Below are positions 3,653 through 60,420 of a stretch of 64,000 bases of DNA, piece after piece. Location of the stretch: the NCBI GenBank assembly GCA_964016885.1, contig OZ024743.1:347014001-347078000 (forward strand). The letters are read 5' to 3'. This DNA comes from Eledone cirrhosa. Its lineage: Eukaryota. How positions within the stretch are numbered: position 1 is the first letter of the stretch; each line of letters begins with the position of its first letter. Below the pieces are notes generated by a model that saw nothing but the letters and a program-made list of their open reading frames with translations, was not told the origin of the DNA and ran no database searches. The position numbers and the translations under genes are program-made.

Positions 3653-6352
3653 TTTTCTCTTTCTCTTAATTTCGAGTATATTTTTTTGACCGGCCACCTT
3701 CCTGGTGGCAAGGTTGTAAAAGAAAAGAAATTGTCATCCCTTGAATCGCAAGAATGTTTTGCATATTTTGAAGGTGCCAGCTATCGCAGCCATTTGTAGA
3801 CTATGAATTAGGGAGCTGCGCTTTTTGTCCGCAAATCCAAGTTCGGTCATACTTTGGTCCAAGCGGGTTGGTATATAACCCGTAGCACCAATAATGATGG
3901 GTATGAAGCTAAAGGTGTATCTTGGATACTGGATTTGTAAGCTCCTCATCAATGGTCCGTAGATGTCCTCCTTCTCCTGTATTTTTCTGACAACGTTTAC
4001 ATCAAGTGGGCAGCTGATCTCCACAACAGAACACGTTTTCAATGTGTGGTCCCAAACTACAATATCAGGCCGGTTGTGCTTTAATTTGGTGGCAGTTTTT
4101 ATTTTCAGGTTCCACCAGTATTCCTTAGTGCCATCTGTCTCAATATATTCTTCCTCGTTTGTTGTTAATTTTGTTTTCCGAAGTGCGTTCCAGATAGTTC
4201 TAGCTATCCCATCGTGTCTCATGGGGAGGTAGTAGCGAGATGACATTCTTTCGCAGCTGGCAACAATGTGGCTTACATCCTCGATCTTTGTTTTACATAG
4301 CCTACATTTATTGTCAGCTGCTGGCCCTCCTCTTTTGTGCAGCAGATATTTGGTAGGGAGTTCTTGTTCCTGTATTGCATAGAGATATCCCTCAAGGTGT
4401 GATGTCATAAACTTGTCGGAACTCCATGCCAGGCTTTTTGAGTGGTTTATCCCCTCTATGGTCTGTGTTTTACGCCTCAAGTATCCATGCACAACTTTCT
4501 CTGTAAATTGGTCAATTTTTTTTTCTTGTTTGAACATTGAATAGGATCTTCCGATTTCTCTGGGTGAGAGATTTATATCAGGCTTTATTCCATATCTCTC
4601 CTCCAGATCAGTCGCTATTCTAATGATATTTCTTTTTTCATGCTCATAAACCTGAGCAAGATGGTCGCCAACCTTTTTCCTCTGTTGAAGGTGTTGCTTC
4701 AGTGTTACTATCCGGGTCTCATATGTTGTTAATATTGATTTTAGACCCCGGCCACCTTCCTTGCGTGAGAAGTATAGCCTATCCACATCACCATTGATGT
4801 TAAAGTTCCCAGTAACACTGAGAAGTTTACGAGTTCTAACATCCATCTCACTTAGTTCTTGCAATGACCAGTTCAGTAGGCCAAATGTTGGCGTTAGAAT
4901 TGGCACAGCATAGGTATTGTGGGCAATGTATTTGTTGTATGCTGACAGTTCTGATGACCATATTTTTTTTACTCTTCTGAGGTATTCAGTTCTGATTCTC
5001 TCCTTATTTATGGGTCCATCATATCTGACATTCTCATCCTGTCCAAGATATCTGTAGTTGTCACCTGACTGCAGAGGTTGTATTGTCAGGCCGTTCATAT
5101 CTAGATTTCTAGAGGAGGGCACAGCTCTTCCACGTTTTACTGCCAAATATGCACACTTGGACTCACCAAATTTCATTTTGATGTCGGTTGAAAATTGTGT
5201 AATGAGGTCCAATTGTTTCTTGATGTCATTGATATTTGGCCCATACAACTTCAGGTCATCAACAAAGAAAAGATGGGAGATACTTCTGGGCCCACTTCTT
5301 TGTCCACCTTGTTTCCTGAGTAGGTAAGATAGTGGATTCAGTGAGAGAACGAAGAGTAGTACTGACAAGCTATCACCCTGAAAGATGCCCTTCTGGCAAT
5401 GTATCCTATCAGTCTTAACCTGCTCCTTCTCACCTCTAAGGATCAAATTGGTGTACCAGTTCTTGGTCAGGCGTTCAACAGCAGCTACTAATGGTTGTGG
5501 GACTTTAGCTAACTGTAAGGCCTTAATAATCCACCCATGAGGTACACTATCAAATGCTTTTTGATAGTCCAGCCACACGACAGTCATGTTTCTGCGATTC
5601 TTTGTTGTTTTTTCCTGAATCATTTTGTTAGTTAGTAGGTGATCTATGCAACCCCACACCTCCCTCTTTCCACCAGCTTGCTCAGGTGTTATGATGTTGT
5701 TGGTAGCACAGTGATCCTGTAAGAACAGGTTAAGGCACCCAGTATATAATTTATACATGATGTTTTGGCAGGCAATTGGGCGGTAATTTTTAGCAAGGGT
5801 GGTTTGGCTATTTTTGGGAATGAGGAGAGTAGTTGCAGTTGATAACCATCTGGGCAGTTCTTGTGTGCCCTTAATGGTTTCTGTAAACAGCCGTATGAGA
5901 TCTTGCCGATAGAAAGTGAAATTCTTCAACCAGTATCCTGTAATGAGGTCTGGGCCTGGCGATTTCCTATTCGACATTTTCTGTAGAGCTGTTTCCAGTA
6001 TTGACCCATCTATGTCATATTGTTTTGTCTGGACATGTTGGCAGTAGTCCTGTTCCAGTTGTTTTAGCCAATTAGCTTGTCTGTTGAATCCGTCATCCGT
6101 TTCCCATACAGATCTCCAGTAGTTCTCAACCTGTTCTTTTGAAGGGGTGTCATTTACAGGGATTGAGCTTTTGCCACCGAAGCTGCGATAAACTGATTTA
6201 GGATCTCTGGCAAACAATCTATTTAGCACTTGTCGTTTATGGGCTGTTGACTTATATTTTAGTCTTTCTGTTGTAGCTGTGAGTTGTTGTTTCAACTGGT
6301 GTAATTTGGAGTTCAAAGTTTTAAATTTGGTATCTCCAAATCGTCTCTCTAC
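3653..6352 (-). mobile_element. 5'-truncated R4/Dong-clade non-LTR retrotransposon (family A) embedded in (CATA)n
   Basis: Uninterrupted ORF and an ~80-nt 3'UTR. (CATA)n lies directly on both sides in the same orientation. The reading frame runs up to the repeat at 6352. Confidence 0.92.
3734..6316 (-). CDS. Reverse transcriptase + CCHC knuckle + restriction-like (PD..D/ExK) endonuclease, R4/Dong type; N-terminus truncated
   Basis: Motifs KSPGPD, NYRPI, WLDYQKAFDSVPH, GIFQGDSLS, FVDDLKLY, CRLC..EDVSHIVASC, RHD, NRPDIVVWD, VEISCP, KEDIY. Confidence 0.95.
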   Translation of the reverse strand: MNSKLHQLKQQLTATTERLKYKSTAHKRQVLNRLFARDPKSVYRSFGGKSSIPVNDTPSKEQVENYWRSVWETDDGFNRQANWLKQLEQDYCQHVQTKQYDIDGSILETALQKMSNRKSPGPDLITGYWLKNFTFYRQDLIRLFTETIKGTQELPRWLSTATTLLIPKNSQTTLAKNYRPIACQNIMYKLYTGCLNLFLQDHCATNNIITPEQAGGKREVWGCIDHLLTNKMIQEKTTKNRRNMTVVWLDYQKAFDSVPHGWIIKALQLAKVPQPLVAAVERLTKNWYTNLILRGEKEQVKTDRIHCQKGIFQGDSLSVLLFVLSLNPLSYLLRKQGGQRSGPRSISHLFFVDDLKLYGPNINDIKKQLDLITQFSTDIKMKFGESKCAYLAVKRGRAVPSSRNLDMNGLTIQPLQSGDNYRYLGQDENVRYDGPINKERIRTEYLRRVKKIWSSELSAYNKYIAHNTYAVPILTPTFGLLNWSLQELSEMDVRTRKLLSVTGNFNINGDVDRLYFSRKEGGRGLKSILTTYETRIVTLKQHLQQRKKVGDHLAQVYEHEKRNIIRIATDLEERYGIKPDINLSPREIGRSYSMFKQEKKIDQFTEKVVHGYLRRKTQTIEGINHSKSLAWSSDKFMTSHLEGYLYAIQEQELPTKYLLHKRGGPAADNKCRLCKTKIEDVSHIVASCERMSSRYYLPMRHDGIARTIWNALRKTKLTTNEEEYIETDGTKEYWWNLKIKTATKLKHNRPDIVVWDHTLKTCSVVEISCPLDVNVVRKIQEKEDIYGPLMRSLQIQYPRYTFSFIPIIIGATGYIPTRLDQSMTELGFADKKRSSLIHSLQMAAIAGTFKICKTFLRFKG

Positions 6353-6383
<31 letters not shown>

Positions 6384-6444
6384 TGTATGTATGTATGTAT
6401 GTATGTATGTATGTATGTATGTATGCATGTATGTATGTATGTAT

Positions 6445-7051
6445 GTCAAGTCACCACTTGGTGCTACTGGTAACATGTATTCCAGTACAACCTGTCCCAT
6501 GGTCGGGTCGTTGGCGACTAAACTGGTACCCCCACCAAGGTTTCTTGGTGAGGAGGGTGACTTTGGACATCCTGCAGGACTAAAAACAAAATCTTTCAAA
6601 GGGAAAAGGAGCTCTTAATAATCAATGGCCATCCAAAATCACCGGGAGAGATGACCCCTTAGCCTTTGTCAAGGCAGAATTCTAGGAGAAGGAAACCTCT
6701 GATATAACACCTGCAACCCTGATGGTATCCAATGATGTTGACTTGTTCTTCTTTTTGGTAAATATCATCTTGGTTAAGAGAGTGGGACTGGCTTTGTGCA
6801 GTGCCTTTGCTCACTATAAAAGCTTCACGGCACAGGCATTGCTTTATATCTGGAGATCTCTCTGCACTTGTCGTCACATGGTACCATGGGCCCAGCACTA
6901 TGTATCAATAATTGTCACAAGTGTAGTGTTTGTACCAGAGTTTTCAAGTCGCTGGCTGGACTAAAAAGTCACACTCGTCAGCGCATCGGTAAGGGTTCTC
7001 CTACATGGATATAAAGTGGTGGCCGTACTCGAAAACGAGTTGGCAGCCACC

Positions 7052-18629: not shown

Positions 18630-19105
18630 ATTAAAATAACAGATTAAATTTTAAGTAAAGAATCGCTTAATCGTATTTTCTTCGTTTTTTCCGTTCATTG
18701 CCAGCGAACTTCTCCATGAACCACATAAAAGAATATTAGTCTACGACTTCTTGTATACCATAAACGTGGTTTTGTCTTTGCGTGTAATTGTTTTTCACCA
18801 CCCCAAATAATGACGTATTATCTTAGTTTTTTCCCGTTCTTTGCCAGGGAACGTTTCCACGAACCAAAGTATCGTCTTCCTGTCTTCCTCTGGTTGCAAC
18901 GTTTTTTGAAATATTTACTTCTGCGTTCACAGATTGACTTTTTTAGTTTCAGAAGATCCCGTTAAGGGTGAAAGCACCGATTCTCTGCGTAAAATTTAAT
19001 CTGTTATTTTAATAAATATTTGCTCTACGATACTTATATATTTGATATATATTTATCCTTATCGAGCCCTCTTTGGGTTTTAGTCTTCAAATTTATTATT
19101 ATAAC
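18630..19105 (+). mobile_element. Non-coding PLE-like repeat with CAGAAGA hammerhead variant (18945-18995) and short inverted 5' piece
   Basis: Homologous to 33480-34400, 34490-34670 and 58953-60420. Flanked by (TA)n. Confidence 0.7.
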
Positions 19106-33479: not shown

Positions 33480-34400
33480 TAGTAATAATAATAAATGTGG
33501 AGACTAAAATCCTAAGAGGGCTCGCTAAGGATAAATATATATCAAATATATAAGAACCCTAGAGCAAATATTTATTACAATAACGGATTAAAGTTTAAGC
33601 AAAGAATCGCTGCTTTCTGCTTTCACCCTTAACGGGATCTTCTGAAACTAAAAAAAAAAAATCAATCTTTGAGCGCAGAAGTAAATATTTCGAAAAACGT
33701 TGCAACCGAAGGAAAATAGGAAGACGATATTTTGGTTCGAGAAGACGTTCCCTGGCAATTAACGGAATAAAGCGAAGATAATACGTCGTTATGTGGAATA
33801 TTGAGAACAAATAAACGCAAAGTCGTAGACTAATATTATATTTAGGAAACCGAATGATTCTCGGCTTCGGAGTTAAGAATAATTGTTTCTACTTTTGGCA
33901 CAAGGCCAGCAATTATTCCAGTGTATTACTGGTGCTTTATTTTATCGACCCTGTAAGGATGAAAAGCAAAGTTAAGAATAATGTAAATAAATTAGTAGAA
34001 CGAAAATGACAGAAGTTATTAAAATCATAAAAGTAATAAAAATAAAATATATCATACACACATCTATATAGGTACATACACGTGCATACGCGAAAACACC
34101 CGTCATGCACGTACACGTACACATAAACACGCGCACACATACATAAACACGCACACATACGAACGTATACACCAATTACACATAACAAATATATAGTTAT
34201 ATAAACGTATATAAATATACACACATAAATACGTATATAACGCTCACACACACAATCCTCCAGGTAAATACACATATATTCACCAAACGTACGTATTCCA
34301 AAACTCAATGTACATATATACACACCTTACATACGTGCAAACACGCATACATGCATACACAAACAAACACAAAATACACATAACCATATATGTATATATA
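33480..34400 (-). mobile_element. CAGAAGA-HHR family copy (HHR 33592-33649) with a nested truncated SINE (33884-33975)
   Basis: Homologous to 59480-60420. The SINE is flanked by a 13-bp duplication AGTTAAGAATAAT. Confidence 0.7.
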
Positions 34401-34489
34401 ATAGCTACACGCTACTGTCCCACGTACCGAGTATACTGTTAAATGATGGTTTAACTAGTTTAATACTGGTTTAATTTATATATATATAT

Positions 34490-34664
34490 ATTAAAATAAC
34501 ATATTAAAGTTTAAGCAAAAATCGCTGCTTTCACCCTTAACGGGATCTTCTGAAACTTTAATCTGTTATTTTAATAAATATTTGCTCTACGGTTCTTATA
34601 TATTTGATATATATTTATCCTTATCGAGCCCTCTTTGGATTTAAGTCTTCAAATTTATTTTTAT

Positions 34665-34670
<6 letters not shown>
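34490..34670. mobile_element. CAGAAGA-HHR family inversion junction (HHR 34508-34557 -)
   Basis: Orientation switches exactly at the stem I pentamer AAACT (34553-34557). Confidence 0.75.
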
Positions 34671-35061: not shown

Positions 35062-35234
35062 TAATTTAATATATCTACTAACATAAGCGCACAGATGTAC
35101 GCCAATGCCAGCAAATACACAGGTTATGTCATAGTACCTAGGTGGTTCGATGCAGGAGAATGCAGAACAATAATATAAAAGACGTAAAATAAGAACATTT
35201 AAAAAAAAAATTAACTTACTTACTTAAATTTTCA

Positions 35235-35314
35235 CTCCAACTAATTAGTTTCTGCAATGGGATAAAGACAGTTACGTAATGAACCGTTGAGAATTTCATT
35301 GCGTCATCAGGGAG
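35235..35314 (-). ncRNA. Hammerhead ribozyme, copy 1
   Basis: Reverse complement of 35784-35863. Confidence 0.75.
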
Positions 35315-35783
35315 GTCATTCTCAGCCGAGTCTCCAGGCGATGCGCGGACACTGGCGACTCATATAAAAATAATAATAATTCGGTAAATGGAACAGCTAT
35401 CGAGGACTGGATTCCAGCTACTGAAAATTCTCACTACCACTGATCATATGGCCGATTCTAAAGAATCAATCACGTGACACAGAGGCTAGTCAGTAGGAAT
35501 GGGGTGGTAAGATGACAAGCGCCTACTAACACCCCCAAAACCACTTCTAAAAATGTTTTTTGGGGGTGTTAGTAGGCGCTTGTCATCTTACCACCCCATT
35601 CCTACTGACTAGCCTCTGTGTCACGTGATTGATTCTTTAGAATCGGCCATATGATCAGTGGCAGTGAGAATTTTCAGTAGCTGGAATCCAGTCCTCGATA
35701 GCTGTTCCATCTACCGAATTATTATTATTTTTATATGAGTCGCCAGTGTCCGCGCATCGCCTGGAGACTCGGCTGAGAATGAC

Positions 35784-35863
35784 CTCCCTGATGACGCAAT
35801 GAAATTCTCAACGGTTCATTACGTAACTGTCTTTATCCCATTGCAGAAACTAATTAGTTGGAG
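35784..35863 (+). ncRNA. Hammerhead ribozyme, copy 2
   Basis: CTCC-CTGATGA-CGCAATG..CATTGCA-GAAA-CTAATTAG-TT-GGAG; palindromic stem III; triplet GUU. Confidence 0.78.
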
Positions 35864-36327
35864 TGAAAATTTAAGTAAGTAAGTTAATTTTTTTAAAAAA
35901 TTTTCTTATTTACGTCTTTTATATTATTGTTCTGCATTCTCCTGCATCGAACCACCCAGGTACTATGACATAACCTGTGTATTTGCTGGCATTGGCGTAC
36001 ATCTGTGCGCTTATGTTAGTAGATATATTAAATTATCTATATTTATCTCCAAATCACTGATTTGTCGAGCAAACCTGCCAAAACCACTTCTAAAAATTTT
36101 TTTTGGGGGGTGTTAGTAGGCGCTTGTCATCTTACCACCCCATTCCTACTGACTAGCCTCTGTGTCACGTGATTGATTCTTTAGAATCGGCCATATGATC
36201 AGTGGCAGTGAGAATTTTCAGTAGCTGGAATCCAGTCCTCGATAGCTGTTCCATTTACCGAATTATTATTATTTTTATATGAGTCGCCAGTGTCCGCGCA
36301 TCGCCTGGAGACTCGGCTGAGAATGAC

Positions 36328-36407
36328 CTCCCTGATGACGCAATGAAATTCTCAACGGTTCATTACGTAACTGTCTTTATCCCATTGCAGAAACTAATTA
36401 GTTGGAG
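36328..36407 (+). ncRNA. Hammerhead ribozyme, copy 3
   Basis: Identical motif 544 nt downstream of copy 2. Confidence 0.78.
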
Positions 36408-36524
36408 TGAAAATTTAAGTAAGTAAGATAATTTTTTAAAAAGATTTTCTTATTTACGTCTTTTATATATATATATATATATATATAATATAAGATCAAA
36501 AGATGGTTAAAGGAGTTCCATGTA

Positions 36525-36591
36525 TTTTATTATGCGCATTTCAAAAACAAACATCATCATGCAATAATATTTGTGTTTTCATCAGATAAAA
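36525..36591 (-). ncRNA. PLE pLTR hammerhead
   Basis: TTTTAT-CTGATGA-AAACA..TGTTT..-GAAA-TGCGCA-TA-ATAAAA. Confidence 0.8.
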
Positions 36592-37620
36592 CAGGAGAAC
36601 ATGATATGAAGGCTAAAAAACACTTGTGGATAGTGCAGTTTTAAATCAACATATGAAAAGTGGTTTTAGATTGATGTGTGATATTGGGAAAAATATTTTA
36701 TTTAGAGAGGGGGGGGAGGATGAAAAAGGGGAGGAGATGAGAGGGAGAGATGGGTGATAGAGAGAAAGAGATAGTTTTTATAACTGAGAGAAGATATATT
36801 GTTTTACATAGGTTGAAAACCGTTGGAAGATAATGTATAAATTAAAAGAATTTGAAAATTAACGAAGGGAAGATATGTGCGAGGAAAAAATATTTTATTT
36901 AGGGAGGGGGGGAGGATGAAAAAAGGGGGAGGAGATGAGAGTGAAGCTGGAGAGGGAGAGAAGGGTGATAGAGAGAAAGAGATAGTTTTCATAACTGAGA
37001 AAAGATATATTGTTTTACATAGAGAGGTTGAGAACCGTTGGAAGATAATGTATAAATTAAAGGAATTTGAAAATTAACGAAGGGAATTTATGTATGAAGA
37101 TAGAGAGAAAAAATAATAATTGTGGATGAATATTCTAACGTCAAAAAAAGTGTATGTTGATAAGTGTTGTGGCTATTTCAAAATTAACGAAGAGAAAAAA
37201 TTATTAAGGTTTGTGTGTAGAAGGATTTGAGAAAAATAATGTGAAGTTAAAGTTTGTATATTGAAGGAATTGATAATATATGCGAATAAAGAGTTAATAT
37301 GTATTAAGAATGAGTTCGTTGATGGGGAGAAAAAAAAAAAAAAAATTAATAATAAATTAAGGATGAAATTGAGATTAAAAAGTTTTATGATAGAGAGAAA
37401 AAATAATAATAATTGCGGATGAATATTCTAACGTCAAAAAAACAAATGTATATGTTATGAAGGATTTTACAAGGTGAAGATAGAAAGAGGGTAATGAGTA
37501 AACAAGTATTATAGAGTGTATAATGCCCTTTGAAGTAAGGTAGGAAGATGGGTATATTTTAAAGAGGTGTATGTATATGTGCCTTTGAGAAAAGATTCTA
37601 AATTGATAAAGAATTGAATA

Positions 37621-39775
37621 TTAACTGTATACTTTGTGAAAAGTCCTATGGAATTTATGCAGGCAGATAGAAAACAAATCTGTACGTCTATTTATTATAG
37701 AATCTAGATTAGAGATAATGGTAAATTTTTCATTTAGGCAGAGATTACAGATTTTAGATAGAGAGCTGTTCAAGTATGAGGATGCAGAAGAAACCTTCTT
37801 CCAAAAGATGGTATATTTAATGTTTTTGTCTTTCAAGGACGATATGAGTTCTGAGAGAGCCGTGTTGGTTCTTTTAAGTTTGTATTTGAAAGATGAATGG
37901 TGATTATAGAGACGAGCTTTAAAAGAGGTGGAAGTGGAGCCAGAATAGGTGAAGGAATTGGTGCTAGTTATAATTTTACATTCATAAATTAAGTTTTTAT
38001 CGAGACAATGGTTGTTGAGAGGACATTTATTTTTAATGCGGCAGTTGCAATTAGAGAGGTTCTTAATGAGTGACCTAGTGTTATCTATAGAAGGAATTGG
38101 ATTGGAGAAGTTGTTTGCGATAGGAATAATAGGAATAATAGTTTCTTGATTTAGAGTTGGATTATGAACATTTAGCGAAGTTGTGTTTGACGTTGTATTT
38201 GGGTTTACAGAAGTTAGCCTAGGGTTTACAATGACGTCGGGAGTACTATTACTGTTATTATGAAATTCAATGTTGGAAGGAAGAGATTTAGTATTTAGTA
38301 TTTTATTGTTGTGTTTAGAGATGATGTTGGAAATATTGGAGGATGTAGAATAAGAAAATTTGATGGTGTGTTTGTTAAATATTTTACTATAGATATGTGA
38401 GGGAGGGAAGCATTTATTTAAGGCACTAAAAAATAATTTAGGAATATTGTTATTAATAGAGATGGAGAAAGGAGCATTATACCAGATTATGTTTTTGTAT
38501 CTAGGTCTTTTATTAAAATTATTGGAATGATCATGATTAATTATTCTACTGTAAGTTTTTCTAGAATTTGTTTCTTTACTATATTTGATTTTATCTGGAT
38601 AGCCGGCTTTAGAAAGTGCGTTATTATAGTAATTGGCGTTAGCATCAAAGATGTTTTTATTAGAAGATATGTTAGATATTCTTTTTCCAATATTACTAAC
38701 TATAGCATTCTTGATATTGAGAGGATGGTTAGATTTAAAGTTAACATAATTTAGGTTCTCATTGTTTTTATCGTAAGGGTAATATAGGCCAGTGTCAAGA
38801 TTAAGAGATACATCCAAGAAATTTGCTAGTTTGATACTATTATCAAATTCAATTTTTAGGTTATGTTGGTTAAAGAGATTACATATATTGTTCTTAATAA
38901 TATTAAGGTTAACTATATTGCAATTTAGGATAGTAAAGAGTCCATCGTCACGATAAATTCCACCTCAAAGTTGAGGAATTTTCCGACTCAAAGTGTTCAA
39001 AATGAAGATACCAATTAAATCAGTCAATTGGGATGAATCGGATGCTCCCATTGTGATGTCGAAGTTGTTAGAGGTATCGGCTCTGGTCCAATATTCGTTG
39101 TTGAACTCTAGGATGGTTTTACGTGCGGTGAGGATGATGTGAAGTTCATCTGTGGTGATGTCAGAATATTTAAGTGCGAAAGATAGAGCATTATTGAGAA
39201 GTGAAGGCGAAATAGAAGAATAGTAGCTGGCAATATCAAATTGAATAAATTTTAGTTTGTTTTTATTATCCAATTTGTTGAACCAGCCAATCACTTCAGA
39301 AGTACCAAAACATAAATTTAGGTTCAAAGAAGAGCAATTAGAACTAACCTGTGGGATAATTCTATCCAAGATGGCTTTACTAACAACCCCCAGATCAGAT
39401 TTAGAGGGGGGCGATTAATCTGACAGGTAGTTCAGTGCGAAAATTGTTTTTGTGATCCTTGAGATTTATCCTTGAGATTTATTCTTGGGAGGAATGGTTC
39501 GGTCTTTTTTTCAATGCCAAGTTTTGACATAATCTCAGAGGCTTCAAGGTTTATGTATTCTAAATTTTCATGGTTGGTTTTACGATACTTTTTCCTAAGT
39601 TCCTTTAAGATAAGGTTGTTATAATTATCCTTGGAAATACCATATAAGTTATTGGTTTTGTCAGAGTGGACTAAAACATTTTTTGAGGAATTTAGGTTAG
39701 AAATTGTGTTCTTGAGATTTACAAGGTGCTCTTGTCCTTTGTAAGGGTATCTCTTGAATTTAAGATTTTTTATTA
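37621..39775 (-). pseudogene. PLE reverse transcriptase + GIY-YIG endonuclease, with frameshift and stop
   Basis: FIQFDIASYYSSI, FDITMGA, IYRDDG, FLDVSLNL, SNHP, IIWYNAPFS, CNCR..CPL..C, LIY..YSGST..FKARLYNH, CNLCLNEK. Confidence 0.9.
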
Positions 39776-39923
39776 TCTCCTCCCCTTTTTCATCCTTTCC
39801 ACCCCCCTCTCTAAATAAAATATTTTTCCCAATATCACACATCAATCTAAACCACTTTTCATATGTTGATTTAAAACTGCACTATCCACAAGTGTTTTTT
39901 ATCCTTCATATCATGTTCTCCTG

Positions 39924-39990
39924 TTTTATCTGATGAAAACACAAATATTATTGCATGATGATGTTTGTTTTTGAAATGCGCATAATAAAA
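39924..39990 (+). ncRNA. PLE pLTR hammerhead (inverted copy)
   Basis: Same motif; palindromic stem III ATGCGCAT. Confidence 0.8.
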
Positions 39991-40117
39991 TACATGGAAC
40001 TCCTTTAACCATCTTTTGATCTTATATTATGTATACTCCAGTCCTACAAACTGTAGAGTGCTTCTTATCCGATATCTGCATTGCTTTATTGTACTACAAT
40101 AAAGCTCACCTCCTACA

Positions 40118-58952: not shown

Positions 58953-58960
<8 letters not shown>

Positions 58961-60417
58961 TAAATAACAGATTGAAGTTTAAGCAAAGAATCGCTGCTTT
59001 CACCCTTAACGGGATCTTCTGAAACTAACAAAGTCAATCTGTAAACGCAGAACTGGATGTTTCAAAAAACGTTGCAACCGGAGGAAGACAGGAAGACAAT
59101 ACTTTGGTTCGTGGAAACGTTCGCTGGCAAAGAACGGGAAAAAACGAATAATACGTCATTAATAGGAGCGGTGAAAAACAAATACGCGCAAAGGCAGAAC
59201 CACGTTTATGGTATAAAAGAGGTCGTAGACTAATGTTCTCTTTAGAGACGTTCTCTGGCAATTTCGGCTTGTAAACATAAATTGCACAAAACCTTCCTGT
59301 ATTACAGCCCCACGTTATACCCTAACGGATAGTACGATCTATACGTGGATATTTTACGTCTTGATGTGGGAGCTAAGTATATGTTTTGTTTATTCCTTTA
59401 CTTATCTGCATAGGTAAGTATATATTACCCGTTTGTTTTGTGAAGGTATGTATACCTTCTCGTACGTATATTTGATTGTTATGGCGTATAATTTTTATAT
59501 TCTGGTATTTAGGGTTTGGCTATGTGTATACGGGAGTTTTGCGTCTGCGTGAGTATGCAGGTTCGTACGTATGGTGGGTGTGTGTATATGTGTACTTCTT
59601 GTTTTAGTTGACTTACGTCTCCGAACATGCGTGTATTTATATGTAGGTATGTGTGTGCGCTTGTTATATACGTATTTATTTACTTATATACGTTTATATA
59701 ATAATTTTTTTATTTGTACACAAGCATACACACACACACACATATTTATATGTGCGTGGTTTTGTATACCTATGGTAAGGTTTTGCGTATGCTTGTGTAT
59801 GTACGTACTTGTTTGCGTATATTTATTTATTTATTTCTATTACTTCTGTATTGTATTTATTTACTTTGTTCTTAACTCTGTAACAGAGATTCATTTGGTC
59901 TCCTAGTTAGAATTTTAGTCTACGACTTCTGCTATACCATTTACGTGGTTTTGTCTTTGCGTGCTATTGTTCTCCACGCTCCATATATGACTTATTATCT
60001 TCGTTTTTTCGTTCATTGCCAGAGAACGTCTCTATGTACCACCTAAGAGAACATTAGTCTACGACCTCTTTTATACCATAAACGTGATTCTGTCTTTGCG
60101 CGTAATTGTTTTTCACCGCTCCTATTAATGACGTATTATTCGTTTTTTCCCGTTCTTTGCCAGCGAACGTTTCCACGAACCAAAGTATCGTCTTCCTGTC
60201 TTCCTCCGGTTGCAACGTTTTTTGAAATATCCAGTTCTGCCTTTACAGATTGACTTTGTTAGTTTCAGAAGATCCCGTTAAGGGTGAAAGCAGCGATTCT
60301 TTGCTTAAGCTTTAATCTGTTATTTAATAAATATTTGCTCTACGGTTCTTATATATTTGATATATATTTATCCTTATCGAGCCCTCTTTGGATTTTAGTC
60401 TTCAATTTTATTATTAT

Positions 60418-60420
<3 letters not shown>
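58953..60420 (+). mobile_element. Longest CAGAAGA-HHR element, with ~310-bp inverted 5' copy (HHRs 58976-59026 -, 60261-60311 +)
   Basis: 58953-59261 is the reverse complement of 60015-60334. Internal ~160-bp tandem repeat. No ORF. Confidence 0.8.

What the first reader, a model, noticed from the sequence alone, without database searches (positions are those of the whole stretch)
58953..60420. Five-copy hammerhead family with a non-canonical CAGAAGA core (U4 replaced by A)
Seen: AGTTT-CAGAAGA-TCCC(GTTAA)GGGT-GAAA-GCA..TGC-TT-AAACT at 18945, 33592, 34508, 58976 and 60261. Stems I-III pair, and C3-G8, G5, A6, A9 and GAAA are retained. All five copies have A at position 4, so this is not copy-specific decay. 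One copy has a pairing-compatible change in stem I (AAACT>AAGCT). The 18945 copy has lost U16.1. Known: U4 is among the conserved HHR core positions, so CUGANGA-based searches would miss this motif. Inference: either a functional variant HHR or a family that amplified without self-cleavage.
Basis: partly seen in the sequence, partly recalled or inferred. Interest (0 to 1): 0.75.

Follow-up and report, generated by a model that had tools for sequence, protein, structure and literature searches.

The report
Hydra-Penelope hammerhead with fixed U4A core
A jumping gene with tens of thousands of copies in this animal genome starts its likely transcript with a self-cutting-RNA motif in which one normally invariant catalytic-core letter was swapped long ago and then kept, so the motif likely cuts only weakly, and the ends of the genomic copies show that they retain the uncut motif.

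Summary
Observation confirmed and much larger than reported. The five motifs are pseudo-LTR copies of a Hydra-clade Penelope-like element (713-aa RT plus GIY-YIG frame, 3,243-bp unit), with at least 40,348 copies genome-wide. A4 is the lineage state: 21,787 A4 against 103 U4, 41 of 41 motifs beside the best-matching ORF copies, 24 of 26 old-subfamily rows (the other two are fold-back chimeras), and no variant in eight coded public runs. A 52%-identical sister family and all 26 published Hydra-clade rows keep U4, so A4 is derived. Since the old and young subfamilies split, 47.5% of four-fold ORF sites changed, but none of 37 core and stem positions did; all four changes lie in loops. There is no covariation within the family. 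5' junctions pile up at an extra G before the first base of stem I (likely a copied cap), not at the cut site. The same lack of cut-site junctions holds for the U4 sister, so this does not measure activity. Best reading: a weakened but still selected ribozyme on an element that transposes from uncut RNA. Cleavage is untested. An earlier scan note reported other fixed core changes in another genome.

The parts
58953..59262 (-). Inverted, 5'-truncated pseudo-LTR arm of the PLE insertion (310 bp, 94% identical to 60015-60334)
   Evidence: inverted repeat I4; blastn
58976..59026 (-). Hammerhead-like motif with A4 core, identical to the young-subfamily majority
59257..59332 (+). Last codons and stop of the PLE ORF; the rest of the ORF is 5'-truncated
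   Evidence: tblastn residues 686-713, 89%; sequence
59333..60260 (+). Long 3' UTR and upstream part of the pseudo-LTR, with an internal repeat of about 135 bp
   Evidence: blastn to the full-length unit, 59257-60334, 94.5%
60261..60311 (+). Type I hammerhead-like motif: stem I AGUUU, C3-A4-G5-A6-A7-G8-A9, U.U-closed 3-bp stem II, GAAA, 4-bp stem III, U17. Predicted cut between 60306 and 60307. 60261 is the likely transcription start
   Evidence: junction pile-up at G+AGTTT
60312..60420 (+). 3' end of the element: major end near 60334 and an optional tail to 60420, followed by (TA)n
18674..19105 (+). Truncated older copy; motif at 18945-18995 with A4, G at 16.1 and a stem I change
33482..33822 (-). 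Truncated older copy; motif at 33592-33649 with A4 and a 7-nt duplication in stem III
34484..34666 (-). Fold-back copy whose family match on the - strand begins at the first bases of stem I; motif at 34508-34557

Best explanation
This is the type I hammerhead motif in the pseudo-LTR of an abundant Hydra-clade Penelope-like retroelement, in which U4 changed to A on the lineage's stem and stayed fixed; the motif likely starts at the first base of a capped transcript and likely cleaves only slowly or with help from the element's protein, while new copies are likely made from uncut RNA. Shown: host element, fixation of A4, U4 in the sister families, conservation of core and stems, and copies that keep the whole motif at both ends. 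Inferred: (a) the extra G is a reverse-transcribed cap; (b) cutting at +46/+47 would remove the cap at the 5' motif, or the RT start sites at the 3' motif, so strong cleavage would limit transposition; (c) A4 weakens cleavage by breaking the CUGA element and by favouring a competing UUUCA/UGAAA helix that ties up G12; (d) the fold is still selected because some cleavage or fold-dependent processing remains.
For: Host: the motif lies 204 nt upstream of the ATG of a 713-aa open frame and again 3,243 bp later. Fixation: 21,787 A4 vs 103 U4; 41 of 41 motifs in 28 of 30 ORF-selected loci; 68 of 68 native-flank copies in loci not picked on position 4; 24 of 26 old-subfamily rows; no other letter listed at place 5596 in 8 of 8 runs with depth there. 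Polarity: the 50-52% identical sister family has the same architecture with U4 and different but pairing stems; A4 elements form one clade (UFBoot 100 on the separating branch); all 26 Hydra rows in File S2 of PMC8557442 read ctga. Selection: 76 of 160 four-fold sites differ between the old majority and the young ORF; 0 of 37 core and stem positions differ vs 26 of 159 pLTR-flank positions (Fisher p=0.005; p=0.028 without the 21-nt search anchor); all 4 changes fall in the 14 loop positions (p=0.004). Further old variants are a 6-nt loop II and U at position 7. Weakening: single mutants in the CUGA region had low activity (PMC9901934, passage); the predicted C3-G12 pairing probability is 0.73 with A4 vs 0.06 in a natural U4 copy. 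Uncut template. A Poseidon PLE hammerhead cleaved only with protein and was not needed for insertion in vitro (PMC11167929, passages).
Against: No cleavage or RNA data at all. No compensatory change inside the A4 lineage (0 pairs in 25 rows). The hammerhead fold is not the predicted minimum (2.2-3.3 kcal/mol above it, vs 0.3-1.9 for the U4 sister), and folding energy is no better than shuffles (z -0.03). The pLTR flanks also hold unchanged runs of 17-21 nt. The 11 core bases alone are too few to beat the flank rate (about 0.15 by hand calculation). A promoter at +1 could explain part of the conservation. The junction test is equally blank for the U4 sister, so it cannot show that A4 cuts less.
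Confidence: 0.5

Rival explanations
1. The motif no longer cleaves. It is kept as core promoter (initiator at +1 plus downstream elements) and as the structure or sequence that the ORF protein recognises near its RT start sites.
For: 5' ends pile up at +1 within a YYANWYY-like initiator (motif recalled). D. virilis Penelope has an internal promoter with Inr and DPE (PMC2377424, passages). Hammerhead mutants did not affect insertion in vitro. Competing helix and poor fold. No covariation.
Against: Changes are confined to loops and position 7, the one free core position. An old subfamily has a one-base longer loop II, which a spacing-dependent downstream promoter element is not expected to tolerate (recalled). 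Stem III and the 3' strand of stem I lie beyond +35 and are also unchanged.
Confidence: 0.35
2. A4 is a fully tolerated core variant: compensating contacts (A7, the U.U pair, loop II) give near-normal cleavage, making this a new active core type.
For: Long-term fixation with the rest of the core intact. Natural active core variants exist, including U4C in a viroid (PMC3088659, passages).
Against: No single or double mutant rescued the CUGA region except the C3-G8 swap. The U.U pair is common in U4 Hydra motifs (14 of 26 rows), so it is no A4-specific compensation. Even U4C lowers activity considerably.
Confidence: 0.1
3. A4 was kept because it makes TTTCAG a 3' splice acceptor (or competes with the upstream TAG) in read-through transcripts of tandem copies, so that splicing removes the core.
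For: The sequence shows a pyrimidine tract and two AGs 6 nt apart in old and young subfamilies. The D. virilis intron ends at helix I (PMC4209133).
Against: No constant upstream exon is joined to this site among the first 100 junctions (read by eye). A transcript starting at +1 could not use an acceptor at +8.
Confidence: 0.05

Closest known systems
Hydra-clade Penelope-like elements and their canonical hammerheads (Craig et al. 2021, PMC8557442; section 11, passages and supplement part 2 with File S2 read; includes Hydra-1_Obim)
   Same: C-terminal GIY-YIG, RW(R/K), DKT, CxCX5C linker, CxxC and CxH motifs, no CCHH, (TA)n targets, pLTR and inverted arm; type I motif with a 4-bp stem III, often a U.U pair closing stem II and U at 17.
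   Different: All 26 listed Hydra rows have ctga; this lineage has caga. Loop III is 9 nt here and 1-3 nt there. The unit is 3,243 bp with a long 3' UTR (generally <3 kb there). Its motif is not that of Hydra-1_Obim.
Minimal hammerheads of metazoan PLEs (Cervera and De la Pena 2014, PMC4209133; parts 1-2 of 4 read)
   Same: Motif in the pLTR, massive dispersed copies, low activity expected.
   Different: Those lack a stable helix III and are thought to act as dimers, and their reported core change is U3-A8. Here helix III is monomeric and the change is at position 4.
Natural hammerhead core variants (Perreault et al. 2011, PMC3088659; passages only, Fig. 5 not visible)
   Same: Rare natural core changes that keep reduced activity, including U4C in a viroid.
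   Different: 'U4A' has 0 occurrences in the main text. Here the change is fixed across a lineage of tens of thousands of copies.
PAc Poseidon element of Anolis (PMC11167929, 2024; passages)
   Same: RT starts 3' of the motif, uncut RNA is the insertion substrate, no reads end at the cut site.
   Different: PAc has a canonical core with shown, protein-assisted cleavage; here cleavage is untested.

Membership tests
Hydra-clade PLE | Single ORF with RT and C-terminal GIY-YIG endonuclease | tested here: met
   713-aa frame with YRDD at 350 and YIG at 602. Pfam gave no family at E<=0.1, so the domain calls rest on motifs.
Hydra-clade PLE | RWK motif, DKT in place of DKG, GxKF/Y not conserved | tested here: met
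   RWR at 41 and GFKT at 61; DKT in L076, L091 and L096, NKT in L068
Hydra-clade PLE | CxCX5C linker; CxxC and CxH around the conserved E and N; CCHH absent | tested here: met
   CNCRNRADC 568, CDLC 666, CKH 694; one Cys between VY and YIG
Hydra-clade PLE | pLTRs, inverted 5'-truncated arm, insertion into (TA)n | tested here: met
Hydra-clade PLE | Groups with published Hydra RTs in a tree | not tested
   the tree used only sequences of this genome
Type I hammerhead ribozyme | Three-helix junction closed by stem I | tested here: inconclusive
   96.7% of cells pair in 25 copies that were picked for largely intact stems, and stems differ yet pair in the sister family; but the fold is not the MFE
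Type I hammerhead ribozyme | Core C3, G5, A6, G8, A9, G12, A13, A14, A15.1-U16.1, H17 | tested here: met
   unchanged in young and old majorities
Type I hammerhead ribozyme | U4 | tested here: not met
   A in 21,787 vs U in 103
Type I hammerhead ribozyme | Paired 10.1-11.1 | tested here: not met
   U.U here; the same is seen in 14 of 26 published Hydra rows and in the U4 sister, so it is a clade trait
Type I hammerhead ribozyme | Compensatory changes within the family | tested here: not met
   0 pairs changed on both sides in 25 rows
Type I hammerhead ribozyme | Site-specific self-cleavage | not testable with these tools
   needs an assay or end-mapped RNA

The most novel reading that the evidence does not exclude
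PLE hammerheads at the transcription start act as a self-limiting switch that decaps or truncates the element's own RNA. This lineage tuned the switch down with a natural U4A core that still cleaves at a selected low or protein-dependent rate: the first natural active U4A hammerhead, paired with a same-architecture U4 sister as a ready-made control for what PLE hammerheads do.
Probability: 0.3. Interest if true: 0.7.

Novelty: new variant of a known kind. Interest (0 to 1): 0.45.

Why it matters
What hammerheads do for endonuclease-bearing PLEs is stated to be unclear (PMC8557442, passage). This genome offers a matched pair: two related, abundant Hydra-clade families with the same motif architecture, one U4 and one A4, both starting their copies at the first bases of stem I. 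Assaying both would show whether cleavage matters, and whether a core position treated as invariant can be traded away over a long evolutionary time. It also shows that CUGANGA descriptors can miss a family of tens of thousands of copies. The element class and the motif class are known, and activity is unproven, which caps the interest.

Tried and rejected
No RNA holder listed, so expression, RNA ends and splicing were not examined. Rfam scan: only microsatellite-driven miRNA, snoRNA and lncRNA matches. Pfam: no family for either PLE protein. Idea that an ancestral U4 subfamily hides among the 103 U4 matches: rejected; the 30 examined sit on different subfamily backgrounds or at truncation and fold-back junctions, and fold-backs centred on TTC-A-GAA create CTGAAGA mechanically. 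Search for a U4 min-hammerhead ancestor ending GAAAGCTT: 202 matches vs 50 control; the first 100 were mostly unrelated, and the one close match inspected (L124) was a fold-back. Search for a second A4 family: 5,032 matches vs 1,608 control; among the first 30 loci the repeated hits were an LTR-retrotransposon LTR, other non-hammerhead repeats, and stray mutants or chimeras of U4 families; smaller A4 families are not excluded. Permuted hammerhead with a separate CUGA strand: the only sense CTGANGA in the unit is inside the ORF. Cut-site footprint: 765 matches, about 73 of the first 100 true junctions by eye, roughly 0.3-0.5% of copies per base against a background of about 0.5% per base; 0 of 30 computed 5' ends fall within 3 nt of the cut site in either family; uninformative on activity because the U4 control behaves alike. 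Loose ends at place 5604 in the run data fall at a GATC site and were set aside as likely library junctions. The 8 runs were found by near-identical words, so they are close relatives and weak support. Papers not held: Luense et al. on PLE hammerhead variants and Nelson and Uhlenbeck 2008; either could mention position 4. No single-mutant U4A rate was retrieved (supplement list of PMC9901934 seen, files not read). Literature searches for a natural U4A: (0 papers with 'hammerhead' plus a CAGA-core string). The closest sister ORF (L097, 54%) had no motif in the stretch held, so when A4 arose on the stem branch is open.

Full report
Observation. The five motifs are present as described and far exceed chance (6 matches vs 0.62 expected). 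The finding's interval is one insertion in a (TA)n run: an inverted 310-bp arm (58953-59262) followed by the last 1.16 kb of a longer element.

Host element. A 21-base stem II-GAAA pattern has 28,008 matches in the 3.0-Gb genome with 0 in the control. A downstream anchor has 40,348 matches. Flanks of these matches led to an ORF. A protein search returned 86 scored matches at 95-100% identity, many in 713-aa open frames. Full-length copies read pLTR - ORF - long 3' UTR - pLTR, with a 3,243-bp period. The protein has RWR, DKT, CxCX5C, CxxC and CxH, and lacks CCHH. These are the features given for the Hydra clade of Penelope-like elements (PMC8557442, section 11). I did not determine the organism; the repeat landscape looks cephalopod-like (recalled, not tested).

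A4 is the lineage state. With identical flanks, A4 has 21,787 matches and U4 has 103. That pattern leaves out the commonest fold-back chimeras, which create CTGAAGA around the TTC-A-GAA palindrome. All 41 motifs found in 28 of the 30 ORF-selected loci have A4. An old, decayed subfamily was found through its ORF and then through a loop III pattern (303 matches; 70 loci fetched). It has A4 in 24 of 26 aligned rows, and the two exceptions are fold-backs. Contigs of 8 coded runs list no other letter at this place, though these are close relatives by construction.

A4 is derived. A sister family with at least 11,160 copies and a 50-52% identical ORF has the same architecture at the same place, with U4 and different but pairing stems; its own subfamilies differ by a compensatory stem I change. 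Two more distant PLE families also have U4. The six A4 ORFs are separated from the eight others with UFBoot 100; relations among the outgroups are unresolved. All 26 Hydra rows in File S2 of PMC8557442 have ctga, and 14 of 26 have the U.U closure of stem II. So U.U, U17 and a monomeric stem III are clade traits, and only A4 (with a longer loop III) is unusual.

The motif stayed constrained after the change. The old majority and the young ORF differ at 76 of 160 four-fold sites and 61 of 500 residues (21 loci). Over the 51-nt motif they differ at 4 positions, all in loops: 0 of 37 core and stem positions, against 26 of 159 in the pLTR flanks (p=0.005; p=0.028 without the search anchor; p=0.004 for all four falling in loops; flank counts read from the display). 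Other old variants are a 6-nt loop II and U7. Against this: there is no compensatory change in 25 aligned rows (25 of 54 distinct motifs), the flanks hold long unchanged runs too, and the fold is not the predicted minimum. A4 favours a competing helix with U11.1-GAAA (C3-G12 probability 0.73 in young A4, 0.21-0.24 in old A4, 0.06 in a natural U4 copy).

What the copy ends say. 2,307 copies have a non-T base before AGTTT. Of the first 100, read by eye, 79 have a foreign 5' flank and 51 of these have G at -1. In 14 of the 51 the G could be templated by the inverted arm; in several others the G follows (TA)n directly or sits alone at the centre of a perfect fold-back. I infer a capped transcript starting at the first base of stem I. 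5' junctions at the predicted cut site are at background level, and the two common 3' ends lie about 29 and 117 nt past the cut site. New copies therefore come from RNA in which both motifs are whole. The U4 sister shows the same pattern (11 of 30 ends within 6 nt of +1, 0 of 30 within 3 nt of the cut site), so this shows that cleavage is not needed for copying, not that A4 abolishes it. This agrees with the in vitro result on PAc (PMC11167929, passages).

Mechanism. Most likely (0.5) is a weakened ribozyme still under selection. Deep mutagenesis found low activity for CUGA-region mutants (PMC9901934, passage), while a natural U4C variant keeps enough activity in vivo (PMC3088659, passage). 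Cutting would remove the cap or the RT start region, so attenuation would cost the element little. A non-cleaving promoter or recognition element (0.35) is the main rival; a fully active variant (0.1) and a splice acceptor (0.05) follow.

Novelty. I found no natural U4A hammerhead in the searches, but two relevant papers were not held and Fig. 5 of PMC3088659 could not be seen. The scan has no look-alike of this sequence on record, but an unreviewed note describes other fixed core changes in PLE hammerheads of another genome. I reached the uncut-RNA reading before seeing it, and it is not independent support. Verdict: a new variant of a known kind, interest 0.45.

Noticed in passing
window 36493-40022 (-): A second, frameshifted Hydra-type PLE (about 36-42% identical to the A4 family's ORF) with a canonical U4 hammerhead with a long stem II at 36585(-) and an inverted copy at 39930(+).
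   Followed up: partly
window 3734-6445 (-): 903-aa open RT frame with a C-terminal zinc-knuckle and restriction-like endonuclease motifs (labels recalled), flanked by 633-bp inverted repeats.
   Followed up: no
L271:1517-1567, L291, L158: Sister Hydra PLE family, at least 11,160 copies, canonical U4, compensatory stem I change between subfamilies, copies starting at the first bases of stem I; a ready positive control.
   Followed up: yes
G000:C1:53356631-53369063: Seven tandem copies of another hammerhead family that all read CAGACGA instead of CTGACGA: a local amplification of an independent U4A mutant (listing).
   Followed up: no
L012:1474 and L290:1397: Two loci share a foreign 5' flank joined to the motif at A4 (TAGAAGA), suggesting a small chimeric subfamily that captured the motif.
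   Followed up: partly
window 9017(-), 20758(+), 40272(-), 42866(-), 43572(-), 58653(+): At least four other hammerhead families with canonical CUGA cores lie in this window.
   Followed up: partly
window 35173-36468: Tandem and inverted ~390-540-bp repeats that contain CTGATGA...GAAA; possibly a retrozyme-like array.
   Followed up: no
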